A DNA stretch of 64,000 nucleotides from the sequence record NC_048196.1, one strand, 5' to 3'. Below the pieces are notes generated by a model. It saw only the letters and a list, made by a program, of their open reading frames with translations. It ran no database searches and was not told the origin of the DNA. Both the position numbers and the translations under genes were made by a program. Shown piece by piece: positions 33,707-50,790 of the stretch; positions within the stretch are counted from its first letter, which is position 1; each line of letters starts with the position of its first letter. Origin of the DNA: Escherichia phage vB_EcoM_Schickermooser.

Positions 33707-36304
33707 CTAGTGACAGGACGCCCAGGAGTTACCCACATCATATCCGGCAGTAAGCTGAACGTTAAGATTGTAAAATTCTCCAGCCTTAGTAACAGCTAAA
33801 GCAGCAAGTTCACCTGCCCGACTATAGGCTGTAAACCATCCACCTTTGGGAGATTCATGAATGTTAGCCCAAATTTGCCCTGTCTCTTTTTCCTTATTAT
33901 GCTTCCATTCTTCGACTTTAGCAAGGCATTCTTTATCAATTTTCTTTTGTTCTTCAGGATCGTCTACTTTTTTCCAACCTAATGATTCGGGTGAAAACCA
34001 TTTAAATTCTACAAGGTTACGAGAAACTTCAAGCTGGGCTTCATCGTGATATGCAATCATTTGTTGTACGAAGTCTTTATTCTTCCAGTCATCTTTAAAG
34101 AAGTCAACACTTAGTCCTTCTTCTTCGATCATATCATCATAAATAACCATTGCACGTTTAGCACAGATAACCCCACCGCTTTGGAACAGAGAGTTAAGAA
34201 TCGCATGAGCAGAACGAGTAGGAACCTTACGACCGTCAATACCCAAAACATATTGTTTACCAGTCTTAACCCAGAAATCGTTTAAACGTTCTTTAAGACG
34301 CGCCAATGGGAATGCAGCTTCCCAGAAAGCATCGAACACCAATTGACCTGTAAACTTATCGCTACCAATTGTTTTAGCAACCTTGTCGGCTTGTGCACCA
34401 TAGGTAATACCATACTTAACAGATTTAGCAGGACTACGTTCAAATTTACGTCCAATAGTTTCAGTGATACGTTTTGCCATCATTGTGTGAACATCATTAG
34501 GTTTCTCTAACAACAGAGCGTTACAATATTCGTGTGGCTCCGGCTCGTATCGCCAACAGTAGTGTGATTCAATTTTTGCTTCCAAAGAGTCGAAGTCGTA
34601 GCCAATCTGGAAGTATTTAGGAACCTCTACACCAAACAAGTTACGCATCTCCCATCCAAACAAAGATGTGACACGAGGAATATTAGCTACAGACCTATGC
34701 TTCATACGAGAGGTTGCAGCATCACATGTAGCGGCTGGTGTAGGAATACGCCCATCCGCCCTTACTGCGGCTAAGAAACCTTTATCATATTCTTGGTCTT
34801 CTTCATCTTCTTCCCAATCAGCACCACCACCTAAAATAGAGTTCCTACGATGCTTATACGTTAAGTATTCTACAATCTGTGTAGCATAAGGGAATTTCTC
34901 ACCCAAAGCTTGCAGGTTAGGACAGATTTCTTTTTCCTGACCTTTGGTAAAACATGGGTTAGTCAATACTTTAAGACCGCGACCTTTACCTTTTGCTATA
35001 CGCTCTTGAATCTTCCTTTCCAAGGTTTCCGGTGTGCACTCCAGATGATCACAACGGTCCTGACAAAAATTAGAAGATAAAGTTTGCTCAACGTAAGCTC
35101 GAATACCTTTCTGAAGTTCTTCCTCGCTCTTTTTAATCTTGGTGCCAGATTTAAGAGTCAAATCTTTATCTTTATATTCCGATGGTACCCAACCTAATCC
35201 TACAAGCCAGTTTTTAATATGGGTTGTATCGTTTAATGTTGCAGGGATGTGAGGATCACATAAAGGCTCATCTGCTGCAACTGGCAGTTTCCACTCTTTC
35301 CCCAACATAACTAACCACCAATCTCCATCCCTCTCTTCCAAATGACCATCATGTTTCTTAGCAAAATTGATCATATGGTTAGTTGGTTCTAAGTTCTTTT
35401 TAATTTGCAACTTAGGTGGAATAAAAGCTTTAAGATAACCTTTTGTTGCTGGTTTAGGTGGCAAAATAGGCTCAACGAGTAAACGAAGACGCTCCATTTC
35501 TGCATCCAAAAAAGCAAGGTTCTCTTCTGCTTGCTTCATGTTAAAAGCAAACCCACGGTGTTCCTGGCGCGTGATAATGTCTGCTACACGTTGTTCAAGT
35601 TCAAATGGACCTTCCCATTTATCATAATCACCCCATTCTTCCATGAGGTAATTATATACACTTGTGTTGGCTTTGTTATCATAGATACAGTAATAAAGCA
35701 TATCCGCAGCAAAAGTCTTAAATCGATCTTCTTCTGGAATCTCTTTACGGAAATCTATTTTTACATCACCGCCTGCTTTTCGAGAAAGTGCTGCCAAGCT
35801 ATGTCCTGATTTGCCCTCAATCTTTCGATCTGGGTTTAACACTTTACTCAAAATCAAAGAGTCAATAAGTTTTACCTTATTTTTGCCCCACGTGTTATAT
35901 TTAACACTGTAATCTAATCCATAAAACAGTTTTGTAGCCAACCAGTCATAGTTGATACCGTTGTGTGCCACAGCCATTTCAACCAAATATTCAGGCTTGT
36001 CTTTAAAATAACCTTCATGATTAATAAAGTCTGGGAAATCTTTTAGTTGAAAATGTGTGTAATCTTGCGCCACATATTCTTTAAGAACATACGTGTATTT
36101 ACCATCTGATTCTTCATAAGGACGCCCGTCAAAAATATACTTAGGGCCATCGTGGAAAGCTACTATCTCTCCTGTTTCATGGTTCTCTAAGACAATACAG
36201 TGCATTTGAAATGTGTCTTTGAGACGATAAGGACTAGCTAAATAATCGATAGTGTCATTATTCAACAATCCGTTTGCTTCAATATCCCATGTAAACTTAC
36301 TCAC
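33707..36304 (-). CDS. DNA polymerase, family A (T7 gp5-like) with 3'-5' exonuclease domain
   Basis: Exo I motif WDIEANGL; motif B RSPAKSVKYGITYG; motif C HDEAQLEV. Confidence 0.85.
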   Translation of the reverse strand: MSKFTWDIEANGLLNNDTIDYLASPYRLKDTFQMHCIVLENHETGEIVAFHDGPKYIFDGRPYEESDGKYTYVLKEYVAQDYTHFQLKDFPDFINHEGYFKDKPEYLVEMAVAHNGINYDWLATKLFYGLDYSVKYNTWGKNKVKLIDSLILSKVLNPDRKIEGKSGHSLAALSRKAGGDVKIDFRKEIPEEDRFKTFAADMLYYCIYDNKANTSVYNYLMEEWGDYDKWEGPFELEQRVADIITRQEHRGFAFNMKQAEENLAFLDAEMERLRLLVEPILPPKPATKGYLKAFIPPKLQIKKNLEPTNHMINFAKKHDGHLEERDGDWWLVMLGKEWKLPVAADEPLCDPHIPATLNDTTHIKNWLVGLGWVPSEYKDKDLTLKSGTKIKKSEEELQKGIRAYVEQTLSSNFCQDRCDHLECTPETLERKIQERIAKGKGRGLKVLTNPCFTKGQEKEICPNLQALGEKFPYATQIVEYLTYKHRRNSILGGGADWEEDEEDQEYDKGFLAAVRADGRIPTPAATCDAATSRMKHRSVANIPRVTSLFGWEMRNLFGVEVPKYFQIGYDFDSLEAKIESHYCWRYEPEPHEYCNALLLEKPNDVHTMMAKRITETIGRKFERSPAKSVKYGITYGAQADKVAKTIGSDKFTGQLVFDAFWEAAFPLARLKERLNDFWVKTGKQYVLGIDGRKVPTRSAHAILNSLFQSGGVICAKRAMVIYDDMIEEEGLSVDFFKDDWKNKDFVQQMIAYHDEAQLEVSRNLVEFKWFSPESLGWKKVDDPEEQKKIDKECLAKVEEWKHNKEKETGQIWANIHESPKGGWFTAYSRAGELAALAVTKAGEFYNLNVQLTAGYDVGNSWASCH

Positions 36305-37098
36305 TATTCCTCCTTTCTAATGTTCTCCAGAACCCACTGAAGTTCTTTTAAACTTAAACTTCTTACTCCCGCAGTTTTACTAGCTTCGGCTTTAAGTAAC
36401 GGGTAAGCCTCAATGATACGCGTTTTAAGATCAGAAGTCAAGGCTTTTAAAAAATAGGTAGATGCTTCAGATAAAGAATCTTCTTCTGATAACACTTTAC
36501 CTGCACTTGCTCCCGCTCTCCTAACGGCTATGTCGTAGTCTTTACTGTTGCCTAATACGAATAGTCGATTTTCTCCTAAAACAACGGGAGAACGCTTCTC
36601 GTTGCGTTTAATCCATACCTGGAATACACAAGGAACATCCCAAGGTTCTCCATGAAGAATAAAAGATCCTTTTGGACATTCTTCTTCGTAAAGAAGATGC
36701 ATGTGGGGATTTAGTTTGTGTGCAAAAAAGATTTTTTGAAATGTGCGAGGCAAGATAAAACAAATACCACCTTCGTTATCCAACATTTCAGCACAATGGT
36801 TAAAGAACTTAATGGCAAGACTAGCATTTTTTCCAAACGGAGGATTACCGACAAAAGCAGTTACACTACCAACAGACTCAACAGATTGAGCTAAAAAATC
36901 TGCCTCAATACAATCTTCAAACTTAGGGTCAATATCAAAAGAAGTTATGTTTTTAAAACAAGAAGAGAAAGCTCCTTCTCCCGCAGATGGTTCTACGTAG
37001 TTAGCTTCCTCTCCAAAAATTTCTTTGATCTTATCACATAAGAACCCCGCATAAGCGGGGTTAGTGTAATATTGATCAAGTGTGTTCAACTTGCTCAA
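36304..37098 (-). CDS. DNA methyltransferase (N6-adenine type, NPPF)
   Basis: Motif I EPSAGEGAF followed by motif IV GNPPFGK. Confidence 0.7.
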   Translation of the reverse strand: MSKLNTLDQYYTNPAYAGFLCDKIKEIFGEEANYVEPSAGEGAFSSCFKNITSFDIDPKFEDCIEADFLAQSVESVGSVTAFVGNPPFGKNASLAIKFFNHCAEMLDNEGGICFILPRTFQKIFFAHKLNPHMHLLYEEECPKGSFILHGEPWDVPCVFQVWIKRNEKRSPVVLGENRLFVLGNSKDYDIAVRRAGASAGKVLSEEDSLSEASTYFLKALTSDLKTRIIEAYPLLKAEASKTAGVRSLSLKELQWVLENIRKEE

Positions 37099-37634: not shown

Positions 37635-39410
37635 ATAGTTGCTATCCGTAGGCAAATTAGCAGGATTGTTGAAATACTGCTCTTTGTCATGCAGAGTTGC
37701 AGTTCTAATGTCATAGTAAAACTGCCCTGCCGGACCCGTTTCCGAGAACTCACGGTTTTTTAGGATAAAGCAATGAGTCGTATTGCGTTCTACAGGGTCT
37801 TCAGCGGCTTTATCTCGTTCCAAAGCCAAGGTAATACCAGCACCTTTAGCCAAGAAACTACTACCCATTGCATCGTCCTCTGTTAAGTGTTCATTGCCAC
37901 CATTAGCTGACTTCTTAACGTGTGAGATGACGATAATAGTTATAGCATACTCTTTCATGATTCGCTTCAACCATGTTGCTAACTCTTCCTGGGCTTGAAC
38001 ATCCATACCAGAAAGCAAATCAGAATAAGGGTCGATAACAAGAATTGTTACTCCAAAATAGATGATCATCTCCAAAACTTTTTCTTTGATAGACTCCACA
38101 TCTGCTCCACGATCATCACACACATAAAAACGTGGTGATCCATCTTCTCTTTCGTAAAAATCTAGGATTTTTTCTTTATTCTCTTCCAAGATTTGAAATT
38201 TCTCTTCCGGTGTTTTCCTGTGTAGAGGAATATGCAAGAAAGAGGACAACAGGTTACGAGAATATTTCTTATAAGTTGCTTCCAAGGACAGAATACCTAG
38301 GGTATGTTCTGGGTGTGCAACGATAATATGTTTGGTGATCTCGTTCACCATCAAAGTTTTACCGATACTGGTCTTTGCCAGGATGACTGTAATCTCTTCC
38401 TCTACTAAACCACCACCCAGCATATTTGCAGCAACACGCATAAAAGGAGGCAAGGTAATCATCTTGGATTCCAAGCATTCTAATGCAGCTTCATACAAGA
38501 CATTAGAAGCATAAACACCTGCTGGGGTGTATAGACGAGCACTCCAAAAAGCTTTTACGAAATCTTTTGCACGACCTTCTTCCAGATACTGATTGGCATC
38601 CTTAAGATCCATCTGCATACGGTAGACTTTGTTACGAGGCAGCACCTTAACAATATTTTCAAATGCCTCATTACCTGCTTTGTCATTATCCATGCAAACA
38701 ATAATCTTCTTAAATTTTTCAAAGAAAGGATATTGTGCCTGAACTTGTTTATACATACTGGTTTCACCAGTTGTGCCACTAACTACTGCTGGAAGTTCAT
38801 ATTTGTTGTCCAAGTTTTCAGACAGCATTTGATAAGCTGCCAGAGCATCGTGTTCACCACCTGTAATTACCACAGTATGAGAACGGTCTGCAAAACGAAT
38901 TTGTCCAAAAAGATCTACATCTTTACCTACTTGACCAATAGGTTTACTGAAATCTTTAGGATGAATACGACGCTTAAAACCAACCAATTCTTTACCGATA
39001 GTAGTCGGATATAAACAACTTTCTACTACCATCTGATCCCCTTCCTGACGGTATTCATAACGAACACCATAGAAAGATGAAACTTTTTCTTTAATGCCTC
39101 GATAACCACGTGGGTTGGTTGATGTTTCTTGAACAATTTTACGATGAATCTGTTTATTAAATTCCGAACCCACAATCTCCTCCTCTTCTTCTAAAACTTC
39201 ACCATTTTCTCGTAACCATTCTACGCTAGGAATAGTGTATTCACACGCAAAGCACTTAGCACCTTTATGCTCTCCATTAGAATCTAATCCATAAACCATC
39301 AGGTTATTACGAGAGCGATCCTTGCCATTTTTCATGCAGCGCGGACAACCTGTATGCCCTTCCTTGCTAAGATCAACATCAAATCCATATTTAGTTATAA
39401 TGTGCGACAC
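37632..39410 (-). CDS. DNA primase-helicase (T7 gp4-like)
   Basis: N-terminal Cys4 zinc ribbon (CPRCMKNG...CFACEY); C-terminal helicase with Walker A (SIGKT) and Walker B-like (VIDPYSDL). Confidence 0.85.
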   Translation of the reverse strand: MSHIITKYGFDVDLSKEGHTGCPRCMKNGKDRSRNNLMVYGLDSNGEHKGAKCFACEYTIPSVEWLRENGEVLEEEEEIVGSEFNKQIHRKIVQETSTNPRGYRGIKEKVSSFYGVRYEYRQEGDQMVVESCLYPTTIGKELVGFKRRIHPKDFSKPIGQVGKDVDLFGQIRFADRSHTVVITGGEHDALAAYQMLSENLDNKYELPAVVSGTTGETSMYKQVQAQYPFFEKFKKIIVCMDNDKAGNEAFENIVKVLPRNKVYRMQMDLKDANQYLEEGRAKDFVKAFWSARLYTPAGVYASNVLYEAALECLESKMITLPPFMRVAANMLGGGLVEEEITVILAKTSIGKTLMVNEITKHIIVAHPEHTLGILSLEATYKKYSRNLLSSFLHIPLHRKTPEEKFQILEENKEKILDFYEREDGSPRFYVCDDRGADVESIKEKVLEMIIYFGVTILVIDPYSDLLSGMDVQAQEELATWLKRIMKEYAITIIVISHVKKSANGGNEHLTEDDAMGSSFLAKGAGITLALERDKAAEDPVERNTTHCFILKNREFSETGPAGQFYYDIRTATLHDKEQYFNNPANLPTDSNY

Positions 39411-39422
39411 TTTGTTCTCCTG

Positions 39423-39701
39423 TTAAAATGGTTCGTTAGTCTCCATCATATATTCTGCTTCTAGTTCTTCCATATGCTTTCTAAATTGGAAAGCAATTTC
39501 TGCTACAGTTACATTTAAATCTTTTTCAAAAACTTCTGTAGAGCCTTCATAAAAACGAATACCGTCAATTAAAAGCCCTCCGTGGTAATCCCAATCACTT
39601 TCACGAGAAAGCGGGTTAGGCTCTTCATAATAGTAATCCACCTCCACGACTAAAGCTTTCCCGTTACGAGTGGTGTATTCAAAATCAAAAGTGTTAATCA
39701 T
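39423..39701 (-). CDS. hypothetical protein
   Basis: 92 aa. Confidence 0.4.
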   Translation of the reverse strand: MINTFDFEYTTRNGKALVVEVDYYYEEPNPLSRESDWDYHGGLLIDGIRFYEGSTEVFEKDLNVTVAEIAFQFRKHMEELEAEYMMETNEPF

Positions 39702-40645
39702 TATAGCTCCTCAAATAAAAGTCTACGACGCTCATTCAACACATCAATGTGATAATGAGTCCTGACATACTTAGCTAATGCTAATCCTTTCTCCATGCAA
39801 ACATCGGGAGCACTTAATAAGTATTCCGTAATATCTTTCCACTCGGAAGGTGTTTCAGCAAAGAATAACAAATCTTTAAACTCTTGTGTATGATAATTCT
39901 CACGAGGAGAACAGATCAAAGGTAAACCCTTAGCACCTGCCTCAAGAATTTTAAGATTGCTTTTTGCATTATTAAACACGTTATCAATCAATGGCGCAAG
40001 ACTGATTTGATGACCATCGTAAGATTCCATGTAGTTGGCATATGGTCTTACACCTTCATAAACACAAGTTGGTGCTACATTTTCTCTGATTACAGACCAT
40101 TCACGACTACTTAAAACTTCAGAATCCCTACGAAAACCACATATTGTAAGATCTTTACCAAAATCGGGCAAGATAGCCAAATCTTGTTTATGTGTTTCAC
40201 TTCCAGCCCAGACTAATGGAGTTTTGGAGTAGCGATCACGGGTCAACACAAATTGACCTTCCTCGTAAGGAAGTCCATTAGGGATTATGTGCACATTATC
40301 ATTGTATTGTGAAAGTTCAACTTGCAAGGCAGGTGTCGTAGTTGTAACAAGATCACTGTGCTCTAAAAACCATTTTAAATGTTCACGAATACCTGATTCA
40401 AAAATACCTTCTAACATGTGTCCTTTTGGAATAACTAAAGAGTCATCCAAATCCATAACCATTTTAAAGCCTAGGTTTTTAAGGGCTAAAAAGCCCTCTT
40501 TACCTTTTGTTGGCACTCCGTTAAAAACGAAAACGTTGTGTTTAGGTTGTGAAGAGAACTGCCTTGAGTAAGGCAGCACTACCCTATGGAAATCGCAGAC
40601 ACTATAATTGATTCCGTTACGATTGTCAAGAATTATTTGTCCCAT
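39701..40645 (-). CDS. glycosyltransferase, GT-B fold (paralog 1)
   Basis: C-terminal KSNLKILEAGAKGLPLICS matches GT-B sugar-donor-binding motif; paralogous to next gene. Confidence 0.55.
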   Translation of the reverse strand: MGQIILDNRNGINYSVCDFHRVVLPYSRQFSSQPKHNVFVFNGVPTKGKEGFLALKNLGFKMVMDLDDSLVIPKGHMLEGIFESGIREHLKWFLEHSDLVTTTTPALQVELSQYNDNVHIIPNGLPYEEGQFVLTRDRYSKTPLVWAGSETHKQDLAILPDFGKDLTICGFRRDSEVLSSREWSVIRENVAPTCVYEGVRPYANYMESYDGHQISLAPLIDNVFNNAKSNLKILEAGAKGLPLICSPRENYHTQEFKDLLFFAETPSEWKDITEYLLSAPDVCMEKGLALAKYVRTHYHIDVLNERRRLLFEEL

Positions 40646-40652
40646 ACTTCAC

Positions 40653-41600
40653 CTACAAACTTTCAATAACCTGGCGTCGCAATTCGTTTGCATCTGCCAG
40701 ATTATAATGTGTTCGAACATGTTCCGCTAAGAACAAGCCGCGATCTTCCCGATAGTTCGGATTGCGAAGAAGCTTAACAATTTCGTAATGCCATTCTGCT
40801 TTATTCTCTGCATAAGCAACAGCGCGAGCATCTACAGGGTTAAAATAAGGTAATACCTTAGAACAAACAATCGGAATACCTTTTGCCCCAGCTTCAAGGA
40901 TTTTGAGATTACTTTTACAATTATTAAAATCATTATCTACCAAAGGAGCTATAGCAATAGCATGACTTTCGTAAACACTCATGTAATTATCTAAATCTTT
41001 TACAGCAGCTTTATATTTGGCATTTGGTAAATTTCTACGGATCTTAATCCACTCTTGCCCTGTGATACTCTGCGAAGCTTCATACCCCGCAATAGTAAGA
41101 AGTTCATCATCAAAAGTGTTAGAGACTAGTCGTAAATCAGGTTCATGACTAGCACCTCCAGCCCATACAATAGGGGTACCGGATGAACGGTCATTTGACA
41201 AAGTAAATTGTCCGCTATCAAAAGGAAGTGCATTTCGGATTACAACAACATTTCTATTTAAATGACGGATTTTATATGCCAAATATTCCGTAGTCACAAT
41301 GACCACATCAGCAAGCTTAACCATAGCCACAATAGCGTGAGTGTTTGACTCATATAAACTTGCTAAATAATGTTCTGGATTAAGTTGGTAGAAATCATCT
41401 AAATCTACAACAATCTTAACACCTTGACGTTTCAGGGACAGAACATATTCTGCACCTTTAGAATGAATACGGTTAAACACGACAACATCTTTCTTAGGCT
41501 GAAAATTATTGTTGTTAAATGGTATAACAATACGATGATAATCACAACCGCTGTGAGGTTTTGCATCAATTTTCAGTTTAGTCCATTTTTTATTTGACAT
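40653..41600 (-). CDS. glycosyltransferase, GT-B fold (paralog 2)
   Basis: KSNLKILEAGAKGIPIVCS motif; start moved to ATG 41600 (GAGGAGG RBS) to avoid 50-nt overlap. Confidence 0.55.
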   Translation of the reverse strand: MSNKKWTKLKIDAKPHSGCDYHRIVIPFNNNNFQPKKDVVVFNRIHSKGAEYVLSLKRQGVKIVVDLDDFYQLNPEHYLASLYESNTHAIVAMVKLADVVIVTTEYLAYKIRHLNRNVVVIRNALPFDSGQFTLSNDRSSGTPIVWAGGASHEPDLRLVSNTFDDELLTIAGYEASQSITGQEWIKIRRNLPNAKYKAAVKDLDNYMSVYESHAIAIAPLVDNDFNNCKSNLKILEAGAKGIPIVCSKVLPYFNPVDARAVAYAENKAEWHYEIVKLLRNPNYREDRGLFLAEHVRTHYNLADANELRRQVIESL

Positions 41601-42273
41601 GTGCCAGTGCCTCCTCATAAGAAATTCGGATTTTCCCATTTTTAATATCTTCTAAAGACGCTTTATATTCTTCCCAGTTAATGCCAATAGCAGCTTCTTT
41701 CTCTTCTTTTGTCAGGTTAGCAAAAGGCATAGGATTGTTTCCAAAAACATCGTCTGGGTGGATATAAGCCATGATACGAAGTGGACAAGGTATTGCCTGA
41801 ATACCCTGATTCAAACCAGCAGCTTTCAAACGGTGTACCCATTCAGCATCTTCAAAACCATAGCCGTGAGTGTAAGGGCGGAAATAACCCATCTTCTCAA
41901 CAACGGCACGAGAATACATTGCAAATTGACACATTGCAAGCTCCCAGAGAATAACTTCTCCTTTACTCCCAACAACTTTATCTTTGAAATACTCCGGCAT
42001 ACCAAAGAAATCCCATCCTCCAGAGACAGCTTGATCTACAAAATATGTTTCCCATCCCTCCATGATTGGGTAGCAATCGTCGTCAAAAATAAACCAATAA
42101 TCATAACCTTCTTCATAAAACTGGTGCATAAGTTCATTCCTGGCGTAAGCTACACCTTTACGATCTGGATCGTTGAATACTCGAAAATCTGCATGTGGAT
42201 CTGTTACAAGATAGTCTTTAAGTGGACGGACACCTACAGTGATAACACCCACTCCGATTTTAATATTTTCCAT
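41590..42273 (-). CDS. glycosyltransferase, GT-A fold (GT2-like)
   Basis: KGVAYARNELMHQFYEEGYDYWFIFDDDCYP resembles GT2 nucleotide-sugar binding region with DxD. Confidence 0.5.
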   Translation of the reverse strand: MENIKIGVGVITVGVRPLKDYLVTDPHADFRVFNDPDRKGVAYARNELMHQFYEEGYDYWFIFDDDCYPIMEGWETYFVDQAVSGGWDFFGMPEYFKDKVVGSKGEVILWELAMCQFAMYSRAVVEKMGYFRPYTHGYGFEDAEWVHRLKAAGLNQGIQAIPCPLRIMAYIHPDDVFGNNPMPFANLTKEEKEAAIGINWEEYKASLEDIKNGKIRISYEEALAHVK

Positions 42274-42281
42274 TTTCTCTC

Positions 42282-42845
42282 CTAGATAGTTTTACTGTGA
42301 TCGTGACAGTGTAATAAATGATGTATAGACCGTTGAGGATTTGTTTGACCTAATCTGTAAATGTGAAACAGATACATTCCCCGCATCAATCCTAACCTCT
42401 TTCCTTTTTCATGTAAAGTGCGAGAGAAAATTAAGTCGAATTGGATAGATTTTTCTTCGAAAGGAATTTCATTCCACAATGATTTTCTAAAAAGCAAAAA
42501 GAAACCTGCCAGAGGTGTTCCGAAAGGAACTTCTTCAACACTCACTTTATGATATTCTCTTGCAATCTTAGCATATTCTATATGGTTTAGAATGTCTGGA
42601 TCATCGTTAATTTGGTTAGAGAAAAGCTGATAACCACTACCTAACCTGTTACAAGTTGCACCTATTACATCAAAAGGCGGGTTTGACATAACAAGCTCTT
42701 CAAGCATAGATGGTTGATCAGGTAGGAGGAACATCGTATCGGTATCTCTTAAACACACCCAACTATCATCTGGAAGAACGGCAATAGCTTCATTGATAGC
42801 CTTGCCGATATTTCCTGTCAGATAGGGAGTAATATAATAAATCAT
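42282..42845 (-). CDS. putative glycosyltransferase-like protein (weak)
   Basis: DxD-like LRDTDTMF; strong RBS. Confidence 0.3.
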   Translation of the reverse strand: MIYYITPYLTGNIGKAINEAIAVLPDDSWVCLRDTDTMFLLPDQPSMLEELVMSNPPFDVIGATCNRLGSGYQLFSNQINDDPDILNHIEYAKIAREYHKVSVEEVPFGTPLAGFFLLFRKSLWNEIPFEEKSIQFDLIFSRTLHEKGKRLGLMRGMYLFHIYRLGQTNPQRSIHHLLHCHDHSKTI

Positions 42846-42861
42846 TCTCCCCTCCGTTATA

Positions 42862-43053
42862 TTAACTGTCAGCTACAATCCCACGTTTAATCATTTCTTG
42901 TTGGATTTGGATGACACGATCTCGTGCTTCCATATATTCTTTAAAAGATTCTTGTAGATGGTCACGAGCTACATCCCGTAGTTTAATCAGTTTGTCGTTT
43001 GTCACTTCTTGAAGAGAGATCTCGCCAGTTTCATTGGTCCCAAGCGTTTTCAT
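42862..43053 (-). CDS. hypothetical protein
   Basis: 63 aa helical. Confidence 0.35.
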   Translation of the reverse strand: MKTLGTNETGEISLQEVTNDKLIKLRDVARDHLQESFKEYMEARDRVIQIQQEMIKRGIVADS

Positions 43054-43261
43054 TTACAACCTCCTTAATAGCTACTGCACAGTTCTTACAAATACATTGA
43101 CCTTTGTTCTTAGAAATTTCAATGTAAGGTTCATTTTCGTTTTCTCCGCGTCGTGAATCGTATATTACAGTATTGAAGCAGACAACGCAAATGTTTTTAA
43201 TAACGACATATTTTTGCACTTTTTGTTTAGTGCGAAAATTGACTTCAATGACTTCTCCCAT
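43031..43261 (-). CDS. small zinc-ribbon protein
   Basis: CVVC...CKNC; start at ATG overlapping upstream stop (TGATG). Confidence 0.4.
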   Translation of the reverse strand: MGEVIEVNFRTKQKVQKYVVIKNICVVCFNTVIYDSRRGENENEPYIEISKNKGQCICKNCAVAIKEVVNENAWDQ

Positions 43262-43546: not shown

Positions 43547-44068
43547 TTAACTCCCCTTTGGTAGATAGAAACCATGCACTTTATCTCGATAAACAAGACG
43601 CATATCACGCTCCCAGTGTGTCCTTATATTCCGTTTCTTGAAGTATAGAGCACCTTTAGTAACATCTAAAACAGACCGCAATTCAGGAAAATGTTTCTCT
43701 AAATAAAGTAAACGCTCCGCTATTGCTTTTGCTTCCTGCCACTTATCTTTCTCTGTCACGTTAAAAGTTTTCGCATATGAGAATTGCCCTTTCTGGAACA
43801 AGACTCCCTTGACTGTGTTAGGGAAGTAGGCATCATTTCTTCTGTTGATTACCACATTCCCAACGGCATTCATTCCTTTTTTACCCAGACCGCGACCTTC
43901 TGCGTAAATTGCACAAGCTAATAGAATTTTATCATTATATTGCTTTGTACATTTGTGAACTACTTTAGCGGTTTTTACGTTTGCAGCTTCGGCTTTCGCC
44001 ACAACAGGTGTAAATGTAAAAGCAGTTAAGGATAGTAACGCAACTGTTACAAAGTTTTTTATCAGCAA
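43547..44068 (-). CDS. cell wall hydrolase, SleB-like, with N-terminal signal peptide (candidate endolysin)
   Basis: Signal-like N-terminus (VTVALLSLTAFTFTPVVAKA); AIYAEGRG...GMNAVGNVVINRRN...GQFS matches SleB-like signature. Confidence 0.65.
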   Translation of the reverse strand: MLIKNFVTVALLSLTAFTFTPVVAKAEAANVKTAKVVHKCTKQYNDKILLACAIYAEGRGLGKKGMNAVGNVVINRRNDAYFPNTVKGVLFQKGQFSYAKTFNVTEKDKWQEAKAIAERLLYLEKHFPELRSVLDVTKGALYFKKRNIRTHWERDMRLVYRDKVHGFYLPKGS

Positions 44069-44168: not shown

Positions 44169-44771
44169 TTATGGACATTCATACCATTCTTTTTTACCAC
44201 CGAAGGCCATCACCACATCGCAAATATCCAGACCAGCTTTACCTACACCATATGCTTTCAGCTTCCATTCTCCATCTTCACGAACCAGGGAAGCCACGTG
44301 GCAGATTGTGTTGCCAGCTACTTCAGGAGCCAGGAAGTCAAAATCCAGAATTTCCACATTACGCTCGGAGTCGAAGATTTTAAGCATACCTTCAGAAGCA
44401 TGACCAAAACGTTTCAGACCTGTATCATCATCAATAGTCAGAACAAAGGCAATCTCTTGTGCATCAGGAGAGATTTTAGCCAGAGTAATATCAATCTGCT
44501 CCATGCTGCCAGTTCCATCACGAACATCGTCACCAGCAAAGGTAGAACGTTCAGGATCAAACTTATTAGCATAGCAAACCAGATGACGTGCAGACAGCAT
44601 TTCAGGATTGCCAGCGGCATTGTGACGACAAACCAGTGCACTTACATCCAGATCCAGTTTAGAATCAGATTTCCAAGAGAATTCCAGGCGTAGTTCTTTC
44701 AGAGCCGGAGCAACTTTCTTCAGGGAAATTTTTTCGCTAGAGCCTTTTTTCAGGGAAATTTTATCAGTCAT
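44169..44771 (-). CDS. terD: TerD-family stress-response protein
   Basis: N-terminal ISLKKG...ISLKK, DLDVSALVC, and C-terminal EDGEWKLKAYGVGKAGL match TerD-domain signatures. Confidence 0.85.
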   Translation of the reverse strand: MTDKISLKKGSSEKISLKKVAPALKELRLEFSWKSDSKLDLDVSALVCRHNAAGNPEMLSARHLVCYANKFDPERSTFAGDDVRDGTGSMEQIDITLAKISPDAQEIAFVLTIDDDTGLKRFGHASEGMLKIFDSERNVEILDFDFLAPEVAGNTICHVASLVREDGEWKLKAYGVGKAGLDICDVVMAFGGKKEWYECP

Positions 44772-44786
44772 CTTTTGTCTCCTCTA

Positions 44787-45056
44787 TTATTTAAGTGTAA
44801 TACCAGTTACAGTCAATTCTACTTCCAAAAGCTTAGATGTGTTTTGGATTGCTACTAATTGTGCATGATGGTTTAGTTCTACAGCAGAATAATCATTTTC
44901 CCCATCATCTACTTTTAAATAAACAATTACTTCACTAAGGTCTAAACCATTTTCGTCAAATGCATTTTCATAGACGAAAGTATCTCCTACATCCAAATCT
45001 TTAATGGTAAGGCATCGTTTATTTACTTTTTGCTCATCAATTTCGAAGTTTAACAC
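44787..45056 (-). CDS. hypothetical protein, paralog B of 46078..46356
   Basis: Shares DLDVGDTFVYENAFDENGLD and EVELTVTGITLK with paralog A. Confidence 0.45.
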   Translation of the reverse strand: MLNFEIDEQKVNKRCLTIKDLDVGDTFVYENAFDENGLDLSEVIVYLKVDDGENDYSAVELNHHAQLVAIQNTSKLLEVELTVTGITLK

Positions 45057-45285
45057 TTCTTCCTCCTAATGTTATCTCCGGTTTGTATATACGAAGAATT
45101 ATAGCATTTTCATTTTCTTTGTCAACCCATTCTTCATAATCAGGCCATACATGAATCTCTACTCTACTTACAATATCTTCCATCCGCACAGTCCCAATGA
45201 AATATTCTTTGAGACTGCGCATAATGAAAGCTTCTCTCTCGCGCCAATAATTTTCTACGACTTGAGAGGCAAGCTCGTCGATCAT
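45037..45285 (-). CDS. hypothetical protein
   Basis: 82 aa. Confidence 0.35.
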   Translation of the reverse strand: MIDELASQVVENYWREREAFIMRSLKEYFIGTVRMEDIVSRVEIHVWPDYEEWVDKENENAIILRIYKPEITLGGRSVKLRN

Positions 45286-46076
45286 TTTTTAGCACCTACT
45301 TTAACAACCCACTCTCCGAACTCTTCAGATAAGAGTTTGTCATAAAGCTCTGAATCTGTCAAGTCTAAATCTTTAATGCCAATAAAACCAACATTGTCAT
45401 AAGCATTTGCCAGTTCTTTCAGGAAGCTGAACTTCTCATTACCAACGCCAACCATGAACCAATAGATAGGCTTATTCTTATTCTCTTCAATAAGACGACG
45501 AACAGCACTAGGATCACCATTCTCACCGTCTGTCTGGAAGAATACAACGCCAGGAGTAACATCAGCACCTGGTTCAGATACAGCTACAACTTTTTCACGC
45601 TCTACCGATACTGTTTCAGTTTTACCAAGCAGACGATTAAAGAAGCCTTTCTTTGGAGCCTCCTCTTGTACCACTTGTTTAGTGGTAACATATTTGGTAA
45701 CAGTGCCAAAATACTCATCGTAGATATCTGCCATTACAGGGGCGTAATTTGTTCCACCTCCGATACGAACATTACGCATACATTTACCAACGTAGTCATC
45801 GTAAACGTCTGCTGTTGCTGGAGTAAGCTCTTGAGAACTCGTATTGAAGGCCCACATGTCAATTTGTTCATTATCGTCGAACAGCATACCAAAAGGAAGC
45901 AGTTTACCTACAAAATCACTCACTACCCCACGAGTATATAGACCATGCATACTACCAGAAATATCTAGAGCACATGCTACACGAAGAACAATCTTACCTT
46001 CGTTCAGGTTCTTATTCTTTTTCAGAGAGAAAGCAAGGTTTTCTTGACGTTTTTTCAGGCTGATTTTCTCGGACAT
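45282..46076 (-). CDS. von Willebrand factor A domain protein (TerF/TerY-like)
   Basis: MIDAS motif DISGSM; N-terminal EKISLKK...SLKK resembles TerD leader. Confidence 0.6.
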   Translation of the reverse strand: MSEKISLKKRQENLAFSLKKNKNLNEGKIVLRVACALDISGSMHGLYTRGVVSDFVGKLLPFGMLFDDNEQIDMWAFNTSSQELTPATADVYDDYVGKCMRNVRIGGGTNYAPVMADIYDEYFGTVTKYVTTKQVVQEEAPKKGFFNRLLGKTETVSVEREKVVAVSEPGADVTPGVVFFQTDGENGDPSAVRRLIEENKNKPIYWFMVGVGNEKFSFLKELANAYDNVGFIGIKDLDLTDSELYDKLLSEEFGEWVVKVGAKK

Positions 46077-46077
46077 A

Positions 46078-46356
46078 TTATTTCTCCTTCTTAAGTGTAA
46101 TATTGGTAACTTCTAAATCTACTTCCACCATATTTGTATCTGGTGGGATGCAATGAGTATAGCCTCGTTGTGCTAGTGATCCATTAATACAGATCGCACT
46201 GTTTGTGGAATTTTTAATGAACACCAAGTTACGGTAGGTATCCAACCCTGCGTCTTCATAGGCATCATAATACATGAATGTGTCCCCTATGCCAAGGTCT
46301 TCGAAAGCAATAGGTAAATCCTGACACTTTTCTTCTTGAATATTGAATCTAAACAC
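46078..46356 (-). CDS. hypothetical protein, paralog A of 44787..45056
   Basis: GTG start at 46356 with GGAGG RBS gives 92 aa aligned with paralog B; track ATG 46422 would overlap upstream gene by 74 nt. Confidence 0.4.
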   Translation of the reverse strand: MFRFNIQEEKCQDLPIAFEDLGIGDTFMYYDAYEDAGLDTYRNLVFIKNSTNSAICINGSLAQRGYTHCIPPDTNMVEVDLEVTNITLKKEK

Positions 46357-46912
46357 GCATACCTCCTCTACCAATTTTGAAGCCCAAATCGTAAGCTTCC
46401 TTAGTGATCTTTTGTAACTCACTTATAGGAAGTGTTACAAGAGGATCATCTTCTTCAATTTCCATCTTGTCATCTTCTGTTTCAATGAGAGTATTATGCA
46501 CTTTGTGATAAGGGTTGTCAACACGTTTAAACTTATTCTTTTCTGTGCTGAAAAAACAATCTGGATCTTCTTCGCCATCACCCCAACCTTGGTTAGGATC
46601 TCCGTCAGATTGTTCTGTAGGGATTTCACCTGTAAAATACTCTTCCAGCACCATAGCGATACCGTCCCTTGGATTCGAGGAATGCATTAAATCACAAACC
46701 TTACCCCAATCCATAGCCCATTCGAACCGTTCACGAACGCCATTTTCATCCTCCTTTCCAGAGAAAACACAACCATAACTATCATAGTTGCCATACATCT
46801 CTTCAATAACAACACCATCCTTCAAAAGAAAGAGATAGCAAGGTGATCCGTCGAAAGAAGTAGAAAGGGCAGCTTTGCCCGATTCCTTACACAAAAAGCT
46901 AAAACAACCCAT
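46349..46912 (-). CDS. hypothetical acidic protein
   Basis: 187 aa, D/E-rich. Confidence 0.4.
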   Translation of the reverse strand: MGCFSFLCKESGKAALSTSFDGSPCYLFLLKDGVVIEEMYGNYDSYGCVFSGKEDENGVRERFEWAMDWGKVCDLMHSSNPRDGIAMVLEEYFTGEIPTEQSDGDPNQGWGDGEEDPDCFFSTEKNKFKRVDNPYHKVHNTLIETEDDKMEIEEDDPLVTLPISELQKITKEAYDLGFKIGRGGMRV

Positions 46913-47109
46913 TACAAACCCTCCTTCAGATTATCAAGAGCTACAGTGGTTTCACAAAATTCTCCATACGCTTTATGATGTTCTAGAAAAGCTTCAGGTC
47001 CACCCCAATCATTATCTTGTGTATTCCAACCATCAATAAAAGCATCTTCAATGATTGTGATCAGTTCCTGTCGAGTCAACGTAATGGTATCAGGTTTTGG
47101 ATTATGCAT
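46912..47109 (-). CDS. hypothetical small acidic protein
   Basis: 65 aa. Confidence 0.35.
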   Translation of the reverse strand: MHNPKPDTITLTRQELITIIEDAFIDGWNTQDNDWGGPEAFLEHHKAYGEFCETTVALDNLKEGL

Positions 47110-47275
47110 CTTCTTTCTCCTCTAAAATATGAAACCCATAGCTACAATAGTCCTGAAAGGTTTCGTGTGCAAGATCTTCTATATCCTCTTGAGACATATC
47201 ATCTTCAATTTCGATATCCACAACCTCATTGCATCCACACCAAGCAGTTTCAATATTCACTCGTAAAGTTTTCAT
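47102..47275 (-). CDS. hypothetical small acidic protein (57 aa, not in ORF track)
   Basis: ATG overlaps upstream stop (ATGA); very acidic. Confidence 0.35.
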   Translation of the reverse strand: MKTLRVNIETAWCGCNEVVDIEIEDDMSQEDIEDLAHETFQDYCSYGFHILEEKEDA

Positions 47276-47469
47276 TCTTCTTCCTCATTGAAGTCAATAT
47301 CTGCAAGGAGTTGAAATTTACGGAAGTTACGACAACCTTCATAAATATAACAATCACGACAAACTGCTAGAACACTTGGGGGATATATGCCTCCCATCGG
47401 TGCGAATCGTTTTTCGTCATCATAACGGACACCAATGTCTTCATCAATTATATAGATACGGATTCTCAT
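47272..47469 (-). CDS. hypothetical small Cys-containing protein
   Basis: 65 aa. Confidence 0.35.
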   Translation of the reverse strand: MRIRIYIIDEDIGVRYDDEKRFAPMGGIYPPSVLAVCRDCYIYEGCRNFRKFQLLADIDFNEEEE

Positions 47470-48578
47470 TTACCAAGCCCTCGTTTCACAGCAGCTACCA
47501 TCCCGTCTTCCAGAGATTGAACTTCATTAATATAATCAACACGAGCAGCACGGGCTTCCGTATTGATGCGGTTAGTTTCTTCCAACATCTTAACCAAGTT
47601 TTCCTGATCGTGACGCAGAGTTTCAATATCCAACACTTGACGGTTAGCCAGTGCTGCTGCTTCGATCTGATTCTGTGTGGCAAGATCGCTACCCAGTTTA
47701 ATTGCCAGGTTAAATTCATCAAGAACGTTATTCTGCGTCTCTGCTGCTTTCATTTGACGTAAGCTCTCGATATACATTGAGAAGTTAGCAGAGTAAGCAG
47801 GAATAACATTATTTACTATGTTACGCGCAGATCGCATTAAGCTTGCAGAAACTTTTTGCATACCTTGCACACGTGGTCCCATTTGGACACACAGTAGGCG
47901 CAATGCTTTTAAATCGGCAATACGAATCTCCAGAAGATCCAAAGTATCTCGGATCACTTGTCGCTGTTCTACTGCATCTTCTGGAAGAGCAGCCAAAGCT
48001 TGTTCTTCTTTTTCATAGGTTGCTGTTAGAAGCTGCATATCTCGGTTCAAACTTGCAGCATATTGTCCAATAGCTTGATGCAGTTTTTCAAGATATACCA
48101 AGGAATCTTCTTCTTTGCGAATATCCATTTGAAGGTTCTTTACCAACTCTTCAATACGGTTATTAACATTATCAAACTCCCCAAACAGGTCTTCTTTCAT
48201 ACCCATAACTTTTTTAATGAGTTTAGTAATACCTTTGCTTTGTTTAATAGAGTTTGGATCAAGTTGTTTTGCCTGTTTAATCAAAGCTGTGAGTCGTTCA
48301 CTCATCTGATCGCCTTGATTACTACGTTGATGTTTTAATACCTCGGCATTCAAGGAACGCAAGGTTGTCCCTGCCTCTGCCCCGATCTCTTCGATCTCTT
48401 GTCGGGTCATAGAAGGCAAAACTGGGACTTCTTGCGGTGCGGCTGGTGCATAAACAGGACTGGCATCTAATACGCTTGGAGCGAATACAGATTTACTTGC
48501 ATCTGTTGTTGCAGTGAATACACTCATTTCAGACTTCTTCTGACCACCAGTAGCTGCTTTTAAAAACGGACTTGTCAT
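47466..48578 (-). CDS. TelA-like (toxic anion resistance family) coiled-coil protein, tentative
   Basis: 370 aa, predominantly helical/coiled-coil, size and context (between terC and terD) consistent with TelA/KlaA family; not motif-verified. Confidence 0.4.
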   Translation of the reverse strand: MTSPFLKAATGGQKKSEMSVFTATTDASKSVFAPSVLDASPVYAPAAPQEVPVLPSMTRQEIEEIGAEAGTTLRSLNAEVLKHQRSNQGDQMSERLTALIKQAKQLDPNSIKQSKGITKLIKKVMGMKEDLFGEFDNVNNRIEELVKNLQMDIRKEEDSLVYLEKLHQAIGQYAASLNRDMQLLTATYEKEEQALAALPEDAVEQRQVIRDTLDLLEIRIADLKALRLLCVQMGPRVQGMQKVSASLMRSARNIVNNVIPAYSANFSMYIESLRQMKAAETQNNVLDEFNLAIKLGSDLATQNQIEAAALANRQVLDIETLRHDQENLVKMLEETNRINTEARAARVDYINEVQSLEDGMVAAVKRGLGK

Positions 48579-49165
48579 TCTTCATTCTCCTCTTCTGCAT
48601 CTCTTATGTATGGTGAAACACCGTATTCTTTAGCTACTTTAACCCAATCGTCCCATTTATACAACCATAATTTTCCTTCTGTTCCTTCTTTATCTGATTT
48701 TAACCACATATTAGGTTGCTTACCTGGATACATGCGATTAGGTTTACGATTATACCCTCTAACACATCTTGTCGCAAACCTATCCACCAAAACAAGAACA
48801 TATTTATATTCATGGTTCAACGGCTCTTTGGAAGTAGCTTTAGGGTTTGCCCCTAATTCTGCTGCCAGTTTTTGCCAATGAGCACCGTGCCGACTAAACT
48901 TACCCATACAACCATCAATAGCATGAGCAATTTCGTGCTTCATTGTATCCACGATCATATCTCTTGTAGAGTTCTTATGCAAGTGCCAATTTACAACAAC
49001 AATTTTATCTCGGTAGTTGCACCAACCGAAAGAGTTATTCACTTTGTTTCTAACGCAAGCTTTATATCCTGCTTCACGTAACATGTTGTAGTAAACAGGA
49101 AAATCTTCTTTTATTTCCTGCATCACTTCCCACCACAAGAGTTGCAAGTCTCTCTCGGTATACAT
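48575..49165 (-). CDS. SprT-like zinc metallopeptidase (HExxH)
   Basis: MKHEIAHAIDGCMGKFSRHGAHWQKLAAELG contains HExxH followed by HG..W. Confidence 0.55.
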   Translation of the reverse strand: MYTERDLQLLWWEVMQEIKEDFPVYYNMLREAGYKACVRNKVNNSFGWCNYRDKIVVVNWHLHKNSTRDMIVDTMKHEIAHAIDGCMGKFSRHGAHWQKLAAELGANPKATSKEPLNHEYKYVLVLVDRFATRCVRGYNRKPNRMYPGKQPNMWLKSDKEGTEGKLWLYKWDDWVKVAKEYGVSPYIRDAEEENEE

Positions 49166-49168
49166 AAC

Positions 49169-49762
49169 TTACACCTTAAAAGTGAAATGCGTGGTCGTGG
49201 CTTCAAAATCAGGGCCAGATAAACGTGCACTGAAATCTGAAATATTTGTAATTAAAAAGCTTTTATGCATACCCAACACAGCCACGCTTTCAATATCTTC
49301 TACTAACATTTCAATCATGTTAGAAACATGGCTGAACGTAGTGTTTTGTTTTTTGATGGTGTAGAAAGAAAGATTCCCACCTGCTGTATAAGATACTTCT
49401 TCAAAATCTTTAATCGTATACTGTGTCCCATCAGTAAAGAAAATGGTAGCTTTATTAGTAGCACGTTTCTTGTTTTTTGGTCCTTTTTTACGTTTACTGC
49501 GAGTAGGAAAACCATTTGGGAATACCGTAGCTACAAATTCTTCAGGAGAAACCTCCTTACCGAAATCATAACCATAAGAAACAGCATCTATAAACTCATC
49601 GTCCTCATTTTTAAAATAATGGAAATAGGGCCAATTTGAAAGATTATCAAGCATCTTATGCTCGTCCACAGCAGAGAATGTATCCCTCAAAGCGCGTGTG
49701 ATTTGCAAAGCATTAGGCAACCTTTTAACACCTACGATGGAAGTACGAATAGAAATTGTCAT
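49169..49762 (-). CDS. hypothetical protein
   Basis: 197 aa. Confidence 0.4.
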   Translation of the reverse strand: MTISIRTSIVGVKRLPNALQITRALRDTFSAVDEHKMLDNLSNWPYFHYFKNEDDEFIDAVSYGYDFGKEVSPEEFVATVFPNGFPTRSKRKKGPKNKKRATNKATIFFTDGTQYTIKDFEEVSYTAGGNLSFYTIKKQNTTFSHVSNMIEMLVEDIESVAVLGMHKSFLITNISDFSARLSGPDFEATTTHFTFKV

Positions 49763-49776
49763 TGTTTTTCTCCTTA

Positions 49777-50784: not shown

Positions 50785-50790
50785 CATCTA

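What the first reader, a model, noticed from the sequence alone, without database searches (positions are those of the whole stretch)
39701..42845. Four clustered glycosyltransferase-like genes in the replication operon: predicted DNA (or virion) glycosylation system
Two paralogous GT-B proteins (shared KSNLKILEAGAKG[LI]P[LI][IV]CS motif), one GT2-like GT-A protein (ARN...FIFDDD) and a fourth weak DxD protein sit between the primase-helicase and the lysis gene, in the same transcription unit as DNA polymerase and an N6-adenine methyltransferase (36304-37098). In lytic phages, glycosyltransferases co-transcribed with replication genes usually glycosylate hydroxymethylated pyrimidines in DNA (T4 alpha/beta-GT, arabinosyl-hmC systems). 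Four enzymes suggest a multi-sugar or branched modification. No hydroxymethylase is present in this window, so the substrate is unknown.
Basis: partly seen in the sequence, partly recalled or inferred. Interest (0 to 1): 0.65.

Follow-up and report, generated by a model that had tools for sequence, protein, structure and literature searches.

The report
Phage four-glycosyltransferase cassette, probably not for DNA
Four neighbouring sugar-transferring enzymes in this E. coli phage are real and conserved, but the evidence indicates they build a rhamnose-containing sugar chain on something other than DNA, perhaps the virus particle itself.

Summary
The window comes from a Phapecoctavirus, a phAPEC8-like E. 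coli myovirus of about 150 kb. The four minus-strand genes at 39701-42845 are genuine glycosyltransferases. Two are GT-B paralogues (41% identical; confident model; GT4/CgeB-like fold). Two are unrelated GT-A enzymes with conserved DxD/DDD motifs. RefSeq already annotates all four as glycosyltransferases.

The DNA-glycosylation reading is not new (Olsen 2020) and is poorly supported:
- The complete genome of a 98.6%-identical relative has no hydroxymethylase, dCTPase or TET/JBP.
- Phapecoctavirus DNA is cut by HincII.
- Sister-genus phages with the orthologous cassette are very sensitive to restriction-modification systems and BREX, and are not targeted by the modification-dependent nuclease BrxU.
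- The GT-B fold is no closer to T4 alpha/beta-GT than to generic GT4 enzymes, and GT3 is not a TAGT member.

New here: the unit is a mobile three-gene cassette (GT4→GT3→GT-B, with the GT-B duplicated in this subfamily). It also occurs in the late region of a Serratia prophage. It co-occurs with a phage-encoded RmlABCD (dTDP-L-rhamnose) pathway, and in one relative it has an NDP-sugar dehydratase gene inserted within it. Distant homologues sit in head-morphogenesis modules or beside the mycobacteriophage virion-glycosylation enzyme.

Best reading: a rhamnose-containing glycan is assembled on a non-DNA acceptor, most likely virion proteins. The acceptor is unproven.

The parts
42282..42845 (-). 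GT4: 187-aa minimal GT-A glycosyltransferase with D34-x-D36; first gene of the cassette in the direction of transcription
41590..42273 (-). GT3: 227-aa GT-A glycosyltransferase with invariant FIFDDD(C)YP and YGFED motifs
   Evidence: phrog_2456 over its full length. Weak, sub-threshold Pfam hits to TAGT, GT2 and Glyco_transf_7C. Alignment A3. hhalign probability 98.3% to the N-terminal GT-A domain of mycobacteriophage Ramsey gp106, and 0.3% to the T6 TAGT-family enzyme.
40653..41600 (-). GT2: 315-aa GT-B glycosyltransferase, paralogue of GT1 (the ORF is open up to 41639, but the SD site and RefSeq support a start at 41600)
   Evidence: phrog_7162 E=1e-148. 41% identical to GT1. SD GAGGAGG upstream of the ATG at 41600. 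Sub-threshold Pfam hits to Glyco_trans_1_4 and Glyco_trans_1_2.
39701..40645 (-). GT1: 314-aa GT-B glycosyltransferase (GT4/CgeB-like)
39423..39701 (-). Conserved 92-aa ORF of unknown function between the cassette and the primase-helicase; its ATG overlaps the GT1 stop. Its membership of the functional unit is uncertain.
   Evidence: phrog_4240. ORFs of 82-86 aa lie between the GT-B gene and the primase-helicase in the distant relatives L011 and L012; their homology to this ORF was not tested.

Best explanation
The four genes are an expanded version of a mobile three-enzyme glycan-assembly cassette: GT-A 'GT4', then GT-A 'GT3', then a GT-B that is duplicated in this phage subfamily. The enzymes are soluble and cytoplasmic. 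They would act one after another on nucleotide-sugar donors, including dTDP-L-rhamnose, which the phage makes with its own RmlA-D enzymes encoded about 75 kb away outside the window. The product would be a short oligosaccharide containing rhamnose. The acceptor is not DNA (my estimate about 0.85). The most likely acceptor is one or more phage structural proteins, so that progeny virions carry a glycan coat as in glycosylated mycobacteriophages (about 0.4). Shown: the enzyme folds and motifs, the paralogy, conservation of the cassette, co-occurrence with rml, and absence of a modified-base pathway. Inferred: the donor sugar, the sequential action and the acceptor.
For: Enzyme identity. Cassette: GT4-like, GT3-like and GT-B genes occur in the same order in a Serratia prophage (hhalign probability 100%, 38-40% identity) and in divergent large phages L011, L012, L027 and L028, each with a single GT-B. 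Donor: all four Rml proteins of the close relative pass NCBIfam equivalog cut-offs. RmlC occurs in the same phage groups as the GTs (Escherichia 104 versus 104-105 records, plus Klebsiella relatives). In L028 an NDP-sugar 4,6-dehydratase/epimerase gene lies inside the cassette. ESCO37 has lost RmlA and RmlB, which the host can replace, but keeps RmlC and RmlD. Not DNA. Virion leaning: GT3's only distant phage relatives are 324 Cluster F mycobacteriophage GTs, encoded two genes away from an 85%-identical orthologue of Che8 gp110, the GT essential for capsid glycosylation. The GT4-type domain in Cellulophaga phages lies between the head-morphogenesis and capsid genes, next to a Methyltransf_24 gene. 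The GT-B homologue in Streptomyces phage Zuko sits beside a sugar-nucleotide enzyme directly upstream of terminase and portal. In the Serratia prophage the cassette is embedded in the lysis-to-terminase late array, with no distinct GC content, promoter or terminator. GT4-family fusions to further GT domains and a sugar O-methyltransferase domain indicate multi-step glycan synthesis.
Against: No experiment shows glycosylated virion proteins in any phage of this group. None of the four enzymes is homologous to Che8's own gp108, gp109 or gp110, so the link to proven virion glycosylation rests on gene neighbourhood only. In this phage lineage the cassette lies among early/middle-type replication genes, downstream of consensus sigma-70 promoters, not among the structural genes. 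The head, decoration, sheath and tube proteins show no obvious Ser/Thr-rich acceptor tails. The top structural matches of the GT-B include enzymes with small-molecule or lipid-linked acceptors. The co-occurrence with rml is largely within one clade, so it is not independent evidence.
Confidence: 0.4

Rival explanations
1. DNA glycosylation: the enzymes attach rhamnose or other sugars to hydroxymethylated or otherwise hydroxylated bases in phage DNA, as T-even phages do, to evade host nucleases.
Confidence: 0.1
2. Remodelling of the host cell envelope: during infection the soluble enzymes add sugars to nascent LPS core, ECA or capsule precursors at the cytoplasmic face of the membrane. This would mask the phage's own receptors, giving superinfection exclusion or less loss of progeny on cell debris.
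For: The GT-B fold is closest to GT4-family enzymes that act on lipid-linked or membrane-associated acceptors: PglH/WlaC, PglA, PimA, WaaG, WaaB and WbnH. These phages use ECA and an LPS-core glucose as receptors. Rhamnose is a common envelope sugar (general knowledge). Phage databases file the genes as 'moron, auxiliary metabolic gene and host takeover'.
Against: No flippase, polymerase, ligase or membrane-anchored component is encoded nearby, and none of the four proteins has a transmembrane segment. In the prophage the cassette shows no moron-like promoter, terminator or GC signature, and it lies in the late operon, which is silent in lysogens. Distant homologues sit in head modules.
Confidence: 0.2
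3. Synthesis of a soluble glycoside, or glycosylation of a non-structural target. The enzymes might make a di- or oligosaccharide or glycosylate a small metabolite, for example the nucleoside-like product predicted for the adjacent Ter/PRTase/HAD gene cluster. Alternatively they might glycosylate a host or phage protein or RNA as a takeover or anti-defence measure.
For: The best sequence and structure matches of the GT-B include enzymes with small-molecule acceptors: sucrose-phosphate synthase, TreT, BshA, MshA and GlgM. BASEL annotators called the orthologue a 'putative disaccharide synthase'. The TerD, vWA-TerF, SleB, GT cassette and primase synteny is conserved in distant relatives. PRTase_3, HAD and macro-domain genes lie nearby.
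Against: The Serratia prophage cassette has no Ter genes in the 15.7 kb examined. Four transferases plus a dedicated deoxy-sugar pathway is heavy machinery for a soluble metabolite. No precedent is known to me.
Confidence: 0.15

Closest known systems
Mycobacteriophage virion glycosylation cassettes (Che8 gp108-110; Ramsey gp106/gp108; Freeman et al. 2023, as cited in PMC11256854 and PMC12363180)
   Same: Both are clusters of several soluble phage GTs that build an oligosaccharide. GT3 is homologous (hhalign 98.3%, shared F[IL]FDDDCYP motif) to the GT-A domain of Ramsey gp106, which lies beside the orthologue of the essential capsid-glycosylation GT. The GT4 family is fused to the same Methyltransf_24 domain that Che8 gp108 carries.
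   Different: There is no homologue of the GT25-type initiator gp110, nor of Che8 gp108 or gp109. This cassette has GT-B enzymes and a phage-encoded rhamnose pathway. The host is Gram-negative. The genes lie in the replication block, not at the genome end. Glycosylated virion proteins have not been demonstrated.
T-even phage DNA glucosyltransferases (T4 alpha-GT and beta-GT; T2/T6 beta-alpha-GT of the TAGT family)
   Same: They are phage-encoded, soluble and early-expressed GTs located among replication genes. They share the GT-B fold (alpha/beta-GT) and the GT-A fold with a DxD motif (TAGT).
   Different: There is no sequence-family membership. Fold similarity is no better than to generic GT4 enzymes. 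GT3 versus T6 TAGT gives probability 0.3%. No hmC pathway exists. DNA of this phage and its relatives behaves as unmodified.
Bacillus subtilis spore-surface glycosylation (SpsA GT-A, CgeB GT-B, SpsI-L = Rml enzymes). This resemblance is recalled from memory and is a lead, not a test.
   Different: It is a bacterial sporulation system. Similarity is only at family level, and no synteny was tested.
Giant-virus and archaeal-virus particle glycosylation enzymes (PBCV-1/NY2A B736L, Mimivirus R655/R699, STIV A197)
   Same: They are virus-encoded GT-A and GT-B enzymes that glycosylate capsids or fibrils independently of the host. They appear among the structural neighbours.

Membership tests
T4-type DNA alpha/beta-glucosyltransferases (GT72/GT63) | Sequence membership in the T4 alpha-GT or beta-GT families | tested here: not met
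   No such Pfam family was reported, even at E<=1. PHROG assignments go to other families. No PDB sequence hit to 1y6f or 1c3j.
T4-type DNA alpha/beta-glucosyltransferases (GT72/GT63) | GT-B fold specifically closest to the DNA GTs | tested here: not met
T4-type DNA alpha/beta-glucosyltransferases (GT72/GT63) | A companion pathway making a hydroxymethylated base (gp42-type hydroxymethylase, dCTPase) | tested here: not met
   Whole-genome annotation of a 98.6%-identical relative. Pfam and PHROG scans. phmmer with ThyA, T6 gp42 and gp56 gave a best E of 0.03, while the positive control gave 1e-11.
T4-type DNA alpha/beta-glucosyltransferases (GT72/GT63) | Virion DNA resistant to ordinary restriction and sensitive to modification-dependent nucleases | not testable with these tools
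   Published phenotypes of close relatives point the other way: HincII cuts Phapecoctavirus DNA, phi92-like phages are RM-sensitive, and PATM is BREX-sensitive and not BrxU-targeted.
TAGT (TET-associated / T6 beta-alpha glucosyltransferase, PF20691) | Score above the Pfam gathering threshold, or profile homology to a bona fide member | tested here: not met
   GT3 scores 19.2 bits against a cut-off of 27.5, over 36 residues only. hhalign of A3 against T6 ggt gives probability 0.3%; GT4 against T6 ggt gives 0.3%.
TAGT (TET-associated / T6 beta-alpha glucosyltransferase, PF20691) | A TET/JBP dioxygenase or hmC pathway in the same genome | tested here: not met
   No TET_JBP domain in the proteins scanned. 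A few proteins with no family assignment remain.
GT-B, GT4/Glyco_trans_1_2 (CgeB-like) glycosyltransferases | Two-Rossmann-domain GT-B fold with a C-terminal nucleotide-sugar-binding domain | tested here: met
GT-B, GT4/Glyco_trans_1_2 (CgeB-like) glycosyltransferases | Pfam family score above the gathering threshold | tested here: inconclusive
   GT1 scores 25.2 against 25.0, which only just passes. GT2 scores 20.6 and 22.6, below the cut-offs. Many family members carry precomputed PF13524 hits. By my reading of the alignment, the canonical EX7E motif is only half present (E235 conserved).
GT-A (GT2-like, DxD) glycosyltransferases | GT-A Rossmann-like fold with a conserved DxD metal and nucleotide-sugar motif | tested here: met
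Mycobacteriophage virion glycosylation system (Che8 type) | Homologue of the essential GT25-type enzyme (Che8 gp110) | tested here: not met
   hhalign of A2 and A3 against Ramsey gp108 (85% identical to Che8 gp110), and of A2 against Che8 gp110, all give probability below 1%.
Mycobacteriophage virion glycosylation system (Che8 type) | Homology to other cassette GTs | tested here: inconclusive
   GT3 matches Ramsey gp106 at 98.3%. A3 matches neither Che8 gp108 nor gp109, and A2 does not match Che8 gp109.
Mycobacteriophage virion glycosylation system (Che8 type) | Glycans covalently attached to capsid or tail proteins | not testable with these tools
   No published glycoprotein data exist for this phage group. 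The one E. coli phage glycostain study found covers unrelated genera.
dTDP-L-rhamnose biosynthesis (RmlABCD), the donor pathway (outside the window) | All four enzymes present at equivalog level | tested here: met
   In ukendt: TIGR01207 465 bits (cut-off 361), TIGR01181 432 (365), TIGR01221 226 (156), TIGR01214 237 (224). The window itself does not include these genes.

The most novel reading that the evidence does not exclude
The cassette and the phage rhamnose pathway place a sugar on DNA by a route that needs no hydroxymethylase, or only at sparse sites. An example would be rhamnosylation of a base made by an unrecognised enzyme among the remaining proteins of unknown function. The density would be too low to block HincII, type I-III restriction or BREX. 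This would be a new DNA modification chemistry. The available evidence disfavours it but does not exclude it, because no nucleoside mass spectrometry has been reported for this phage group.
Probability: 0.05. Interest if true: 0.85.

Novelty: new variant of a known kind. Interest (0 to 1): 0.4.

Why it matters
Phapecoctavirus and phi92-like phages are among the E. coli phages most often isolated and are widely proposed for therapy and biocontrol. If their particles carry a phage-made rhamnose-containing glycan, it would be the first virion glycosylation in phages of Gram-negative bacteria. It could also affect antibody recognition, clearance and stability, as reported for mycobacteriophages. 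The analysis also closes off a published but untested idea, rhamnosylated DNA in these phages, by bringing together genomic absence of the pathway and several independent phenotypes. It defines a compact, mobile three-enzyme cassette that can be tested directly.

Tried and rejected
1. Direct homology of GT3 and GT4 to Che8 gp108, gp109 or gp110 (not every pair was run): none. My early assumption that GT3 matched the Che8 enzymes was wrong; it matches only the alternative Ramsey-type GT.
2. A paper reporting 'no virion glycosylation' in E. coli phages (JEP7, JEP6) looked decisive, but those phages are a Rosemountvirus and a Tequatrovirus and lack the cassette.
3. Sequence searches of GT3 and GT4 profiles against PDB, and of all four proteins against NCBIfam, gave nothing useful.
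4. A search for Ser/Thr-rich acceptor tails in head, decoration, sheath and tube proteins found nothing obvious.
5. The search for related loci in viral contigs returned only 16 loci, mostly close relatives, so a statistical census of neighbourhoods was not possible.
6. The weak gp42 'hit' on the DUF7275 protein (E=0.03) was checked and dismissed.
7. The phi92 genome/proteome paper and the Freeman 2023 paper are not held in the library, so statements about them rest on citing papers or on memory.
8. Papers on this phage subfamily were swept for GT, rhamnose or DNA-chemistry data. Only Olsen 2020 and Maffei 2021 comment.
Full report
**Identity of the window.** The region 39400-43100 is 97.5-98.7% identical to about 63 sequenced Phapecoctavirus genomes (phAPEC8-like E. 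coli myoviruses of about 150 kb, subfamily Stephanstirmvirinae). The window aligns with Escherichia phage ukendt (NC_052661) from about 101.5 kb, across the record end, to about 18.9 kb. I used that genome as a proxy for the parts outside the window.

**The observation.** Four minus-strand ORFs lie at the stated coordinates.
- GT1 (39701-40645) and GT2 (40653-41600 or 41639) are paralogues, 41% identical with E=1e-76.
- GT3 (41590-42273) has invariant FIFDDD and YGFED motifs and a full-length PHROG glycosyltransferase match.
- All four proteins are predicted soluble and each gene has its own Shine-Dalgarno site. The genes are 7-16 nt apart or overlapping. The SD site supports 41600 as the GT2 start.
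- RefSeq already labels all four genes 'glycosyltransferase'.

**Test of the DNA-glycosylation interpretation.** Olsen et al. 2020 already suggested that phapecoctaviruses and phi92-like phages use rhamnose to glycosylate hydroxymethylated nucleotides. Four lines of evidence argue against it.

- *No precursor pathway.*
  - The complete relative genome has a ThyX, an NT5C-like nucleotidase and a MazG-like protein.
  - It has no ThyA/gp42-type hydroxymethylase, no gp56-type dCTPase and no TET/JBP domain, by annotation and by Pfam and PHROG scans of nearly all proteins of about 165 aa or more.
  - phmmer searches with ThyA, T6 gp42 and T6 gp56 against all ORFs of 80 aa or more gave a best E of 0.03. 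The positive control, ThyA against gp42, gave 1e-11.
- *Published phenotypes.*
  - In one study HincII cut all isolates except three T-even relatives, so the five Phapecoctavirus isolates were cut. These include ESCO25, which is 98.6% identical here. The window alone has 65 HincII sites.
  - The BASEL study found Vequintavirinae and phi92-like relatives 'exceptionally susceptible' to restriction-modification systems, 'despite' their dTDP-sugar genes. Those phages carry orthologues of all four GTs at 66-76% identity.
  - Phage PATM is a Justusliebigvirus with the orthologous cassette. BREX reduces its plating by seven orders of magnitude, and it belongs to the class not targeted by BrxU, which cleaves 5mC, 5hmC and glc-5hmC DNA.
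  - Stephanstirmvirinae are also hit by Druantia III and ARMADA II, which spare hypermodified T-even phages.
- *GT3's hint of a DNA GT.* This is a sub-threshold TAGT hit (19.2 bits against 27.5) and a 40-residue match to the T2/T6 beta-alpha-GT PHROG. It does not survive a direct test: hhalign of the GT3 profile against the authentic T6 enzyme gives probability 0.3%.

**What the unit is.**
- The GT-B family is small and almost entirely phage-borne. Its one 'bacterial' member, from Serratia sp. M24T3, lies in a prophage.
- In that prophage, the two ORFs directly upstream are a GT4 homologue (probability 100%, 40% identity) and a GT3 homologue (probability 100%, 38% identity). The gene order is the same as in the window.
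- The same GT4, GT3, GT-B order, with a single GT-B, occurs in divergent large phages (L011, L012, L027, L028).
- The ancestral unit is therefore a three-enzyme cassette. The second GT-B is a duplication found in the Escherichia Phapecoctavirus/Justusliebigvirus phages and Citrobacter phage Tr1, where there are two places per record; the Klebsiella relatives have one.
- In the prophage the cassette lies between the lysis genes and HNH/terminase/head genes. It has no distinct GC content, promoter or terminator. It thus looks like part of the late operon rather than a lysogenic-conversion moron.
- This also shows that linkage to replication genes is lineage-specific.

**Donor sugar.**
- The relative encodes RmlA, RmlB, RmlC and RmlD, and all four pass NCBIfam equivalog cut-offs. 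These genes lie outside the window.
- RmlC occurs in the same phage groups as the GTs.
- In L028 an NDP-sugar 4,6-dehydratase/epimerase gene is inserted between GT4 and GT3.
- ESCO37 lacks RmlA and RmlB but keeps RmlC and RmlD. This fits a requirement for L-rhamnose, since E. coli can supply dTDP-4-keto-6-deoxyglucose through RffH and RffG (established pathway knowledge).
- That the GTs use dTDP-rhamnose is an inference.

**Acceptor.** This is the weak point. The evidence leaning towards virion proteins is as follows.
- GT3's only distant phage relatives are 324 Cluster F mycobacteriophage GTs. It is homologous to the GT-A domain of Ramsey gp106 (98.3%).
- Ramsey gp106 is encoded two genes from gp108. 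That protein is 85% identical to Che8 gp110, named as the GT essential for capsid glycosylation.
- The GT4-type domain in Cellulophaga phages lies between the head-morphogenesis and capsid genes, beside a Methyltransf_24 gene.
- The GT-B homologue of Streptomyces phage Zuko sits with a sugar-nucleotide enzyme just upstream of terminase and portal.
- The GT4 family (982 clusters) is repeatedly fused to further GT domains and to Methyltransf_24, the domain also present in Che8 gp108.

The evidence against is as follows.
- None of the four enzymes is homologous to Che8's own GTs.
- The structural proteins show no obvious acceptor tails.
- In this lineage the cassette sits among replication genes, downstream of consensus sigma-70 promoters.
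- No glycoprotein data exist for these phages.

Host-envelope remodelling and small-molecule glycosylation remain live rivals. The GT-B resembles enzymes acting on lipid-linked acceptors (PglA, PglH, PimA, WaaG) and on small-molecule acceptors (SPS, TreT, BshA).

**Verdict.** The genes are real, conserved and correctly recognised as glycosyltransferases. The DNA-modification reading is an existing hypothesis, and genomic and published phenotypic evidence now argues against it. The best-supported picture is a mobile glycan-assembly cassette that works with a phage rhamnose pathway on a non-DNA acceptor, most likely virion proteins, at modest confidence. Interest is moderate: the function is open and easy to test, and it is relevant to phages proposed for therapy. 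No mechanism is established, and the headline claim of the finding is probably wrong.

Noticed in passing
window 44169-54700 (minus strand): A Ter-type gene cluster lies directly upstream of the GT block. It contains TerD (44169-44771) and vWA-TerF-like (45282-46076). By mapping to ukendt it also contains a TelA-like 'tellurite resistance' gene, SprT-like, TerC, a macro domain, a ComF-like PRTase_3 and a HAD hydrolase. The TerD/vWA/SleB/GT-cassette/primase synteny is kept in distant relatives (L011, L028). Such clusters have been proposed (from memory) to make a nucleoside-like metabolite.
   Followed up: partly
window 33707-36304 (minus strand); break at 34393/34409: The DNA polymerase here is 865 aa, whereas the ukendt orthologue is annotated at 1189 aa. 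ukendt has about 1 kb of extra sequence at this point, possibly an intein or homing element. FKP3 has an HNH gene next to its polymerase.
   Followed up: no
window 45125-45098 (minus strand): A perfect sigma-70 consensus promoter (TTGACA, 16 nt, TATAAT, with an extended -10 TG) lies about 2.3 kb upstream of the GT cassette. 11/12 matches occur at 40629-40601 (inside GT1) and 37601-37573.
   Followed up: no
window 43547-44068 (minus strand): The SleB-type cell-wall hydrolase ('lysis gene') begins with a hydrophobic signal- or SAR-like segment (MLIKNFVTVALLSLTAFTFTPVVAKAEA). A second lysozyme and an Rz-like spanin are encoded elsewhere in the relative's genome, so the lysis functions are dispersed.
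   Followed up: no
GenBank relatives, e.g. MG065650 'Campylobacter phage B15', OP562383 'Acinetobacter phage vB_AbaM_ABPW7': Records labelled as Campylobacter, Acinetobacter, Pseudomonas or Klebsiella phages match this E. coli Phapecoctavirus region at 95-99% identity (B15 98.6%). The host labels look doubtful, or the host range is unusually broad.
   Followed up: no
ukendt 69571-72849 (outside the window); ESCO37 (OM386659): The phage-encoded RmlABCD operon lies between glutaredoxin/lysozyme and the RNR genes. ESCO37 naturally lacks RmlA and RmlB but keeps RmlC and RmlD. It is a ready-made natural variant for testing whether the pathway matters.
   Followed up: partly
ukendt 101011-101490 (just upstream of window position 1): The gene annotated 'DNA methyltransferase' between the portal and scaffold genes actually scores as an XkdF-type phage serine protease (Peptidase_S78_2). 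This is probably a RefSeq misannotation.
   Followed up: partly
L015 (Klebsiella phage FKP3) 6409-7784: In this Klebsiella relative the locus holds only a GT4-like gene and a GT-B that matches in three pieces and is annotated short (230 aa). The GT3-like gene is about 90 kb away. The cassette content therefore varies between lineages and may be decaying in some.
   Followed up: no
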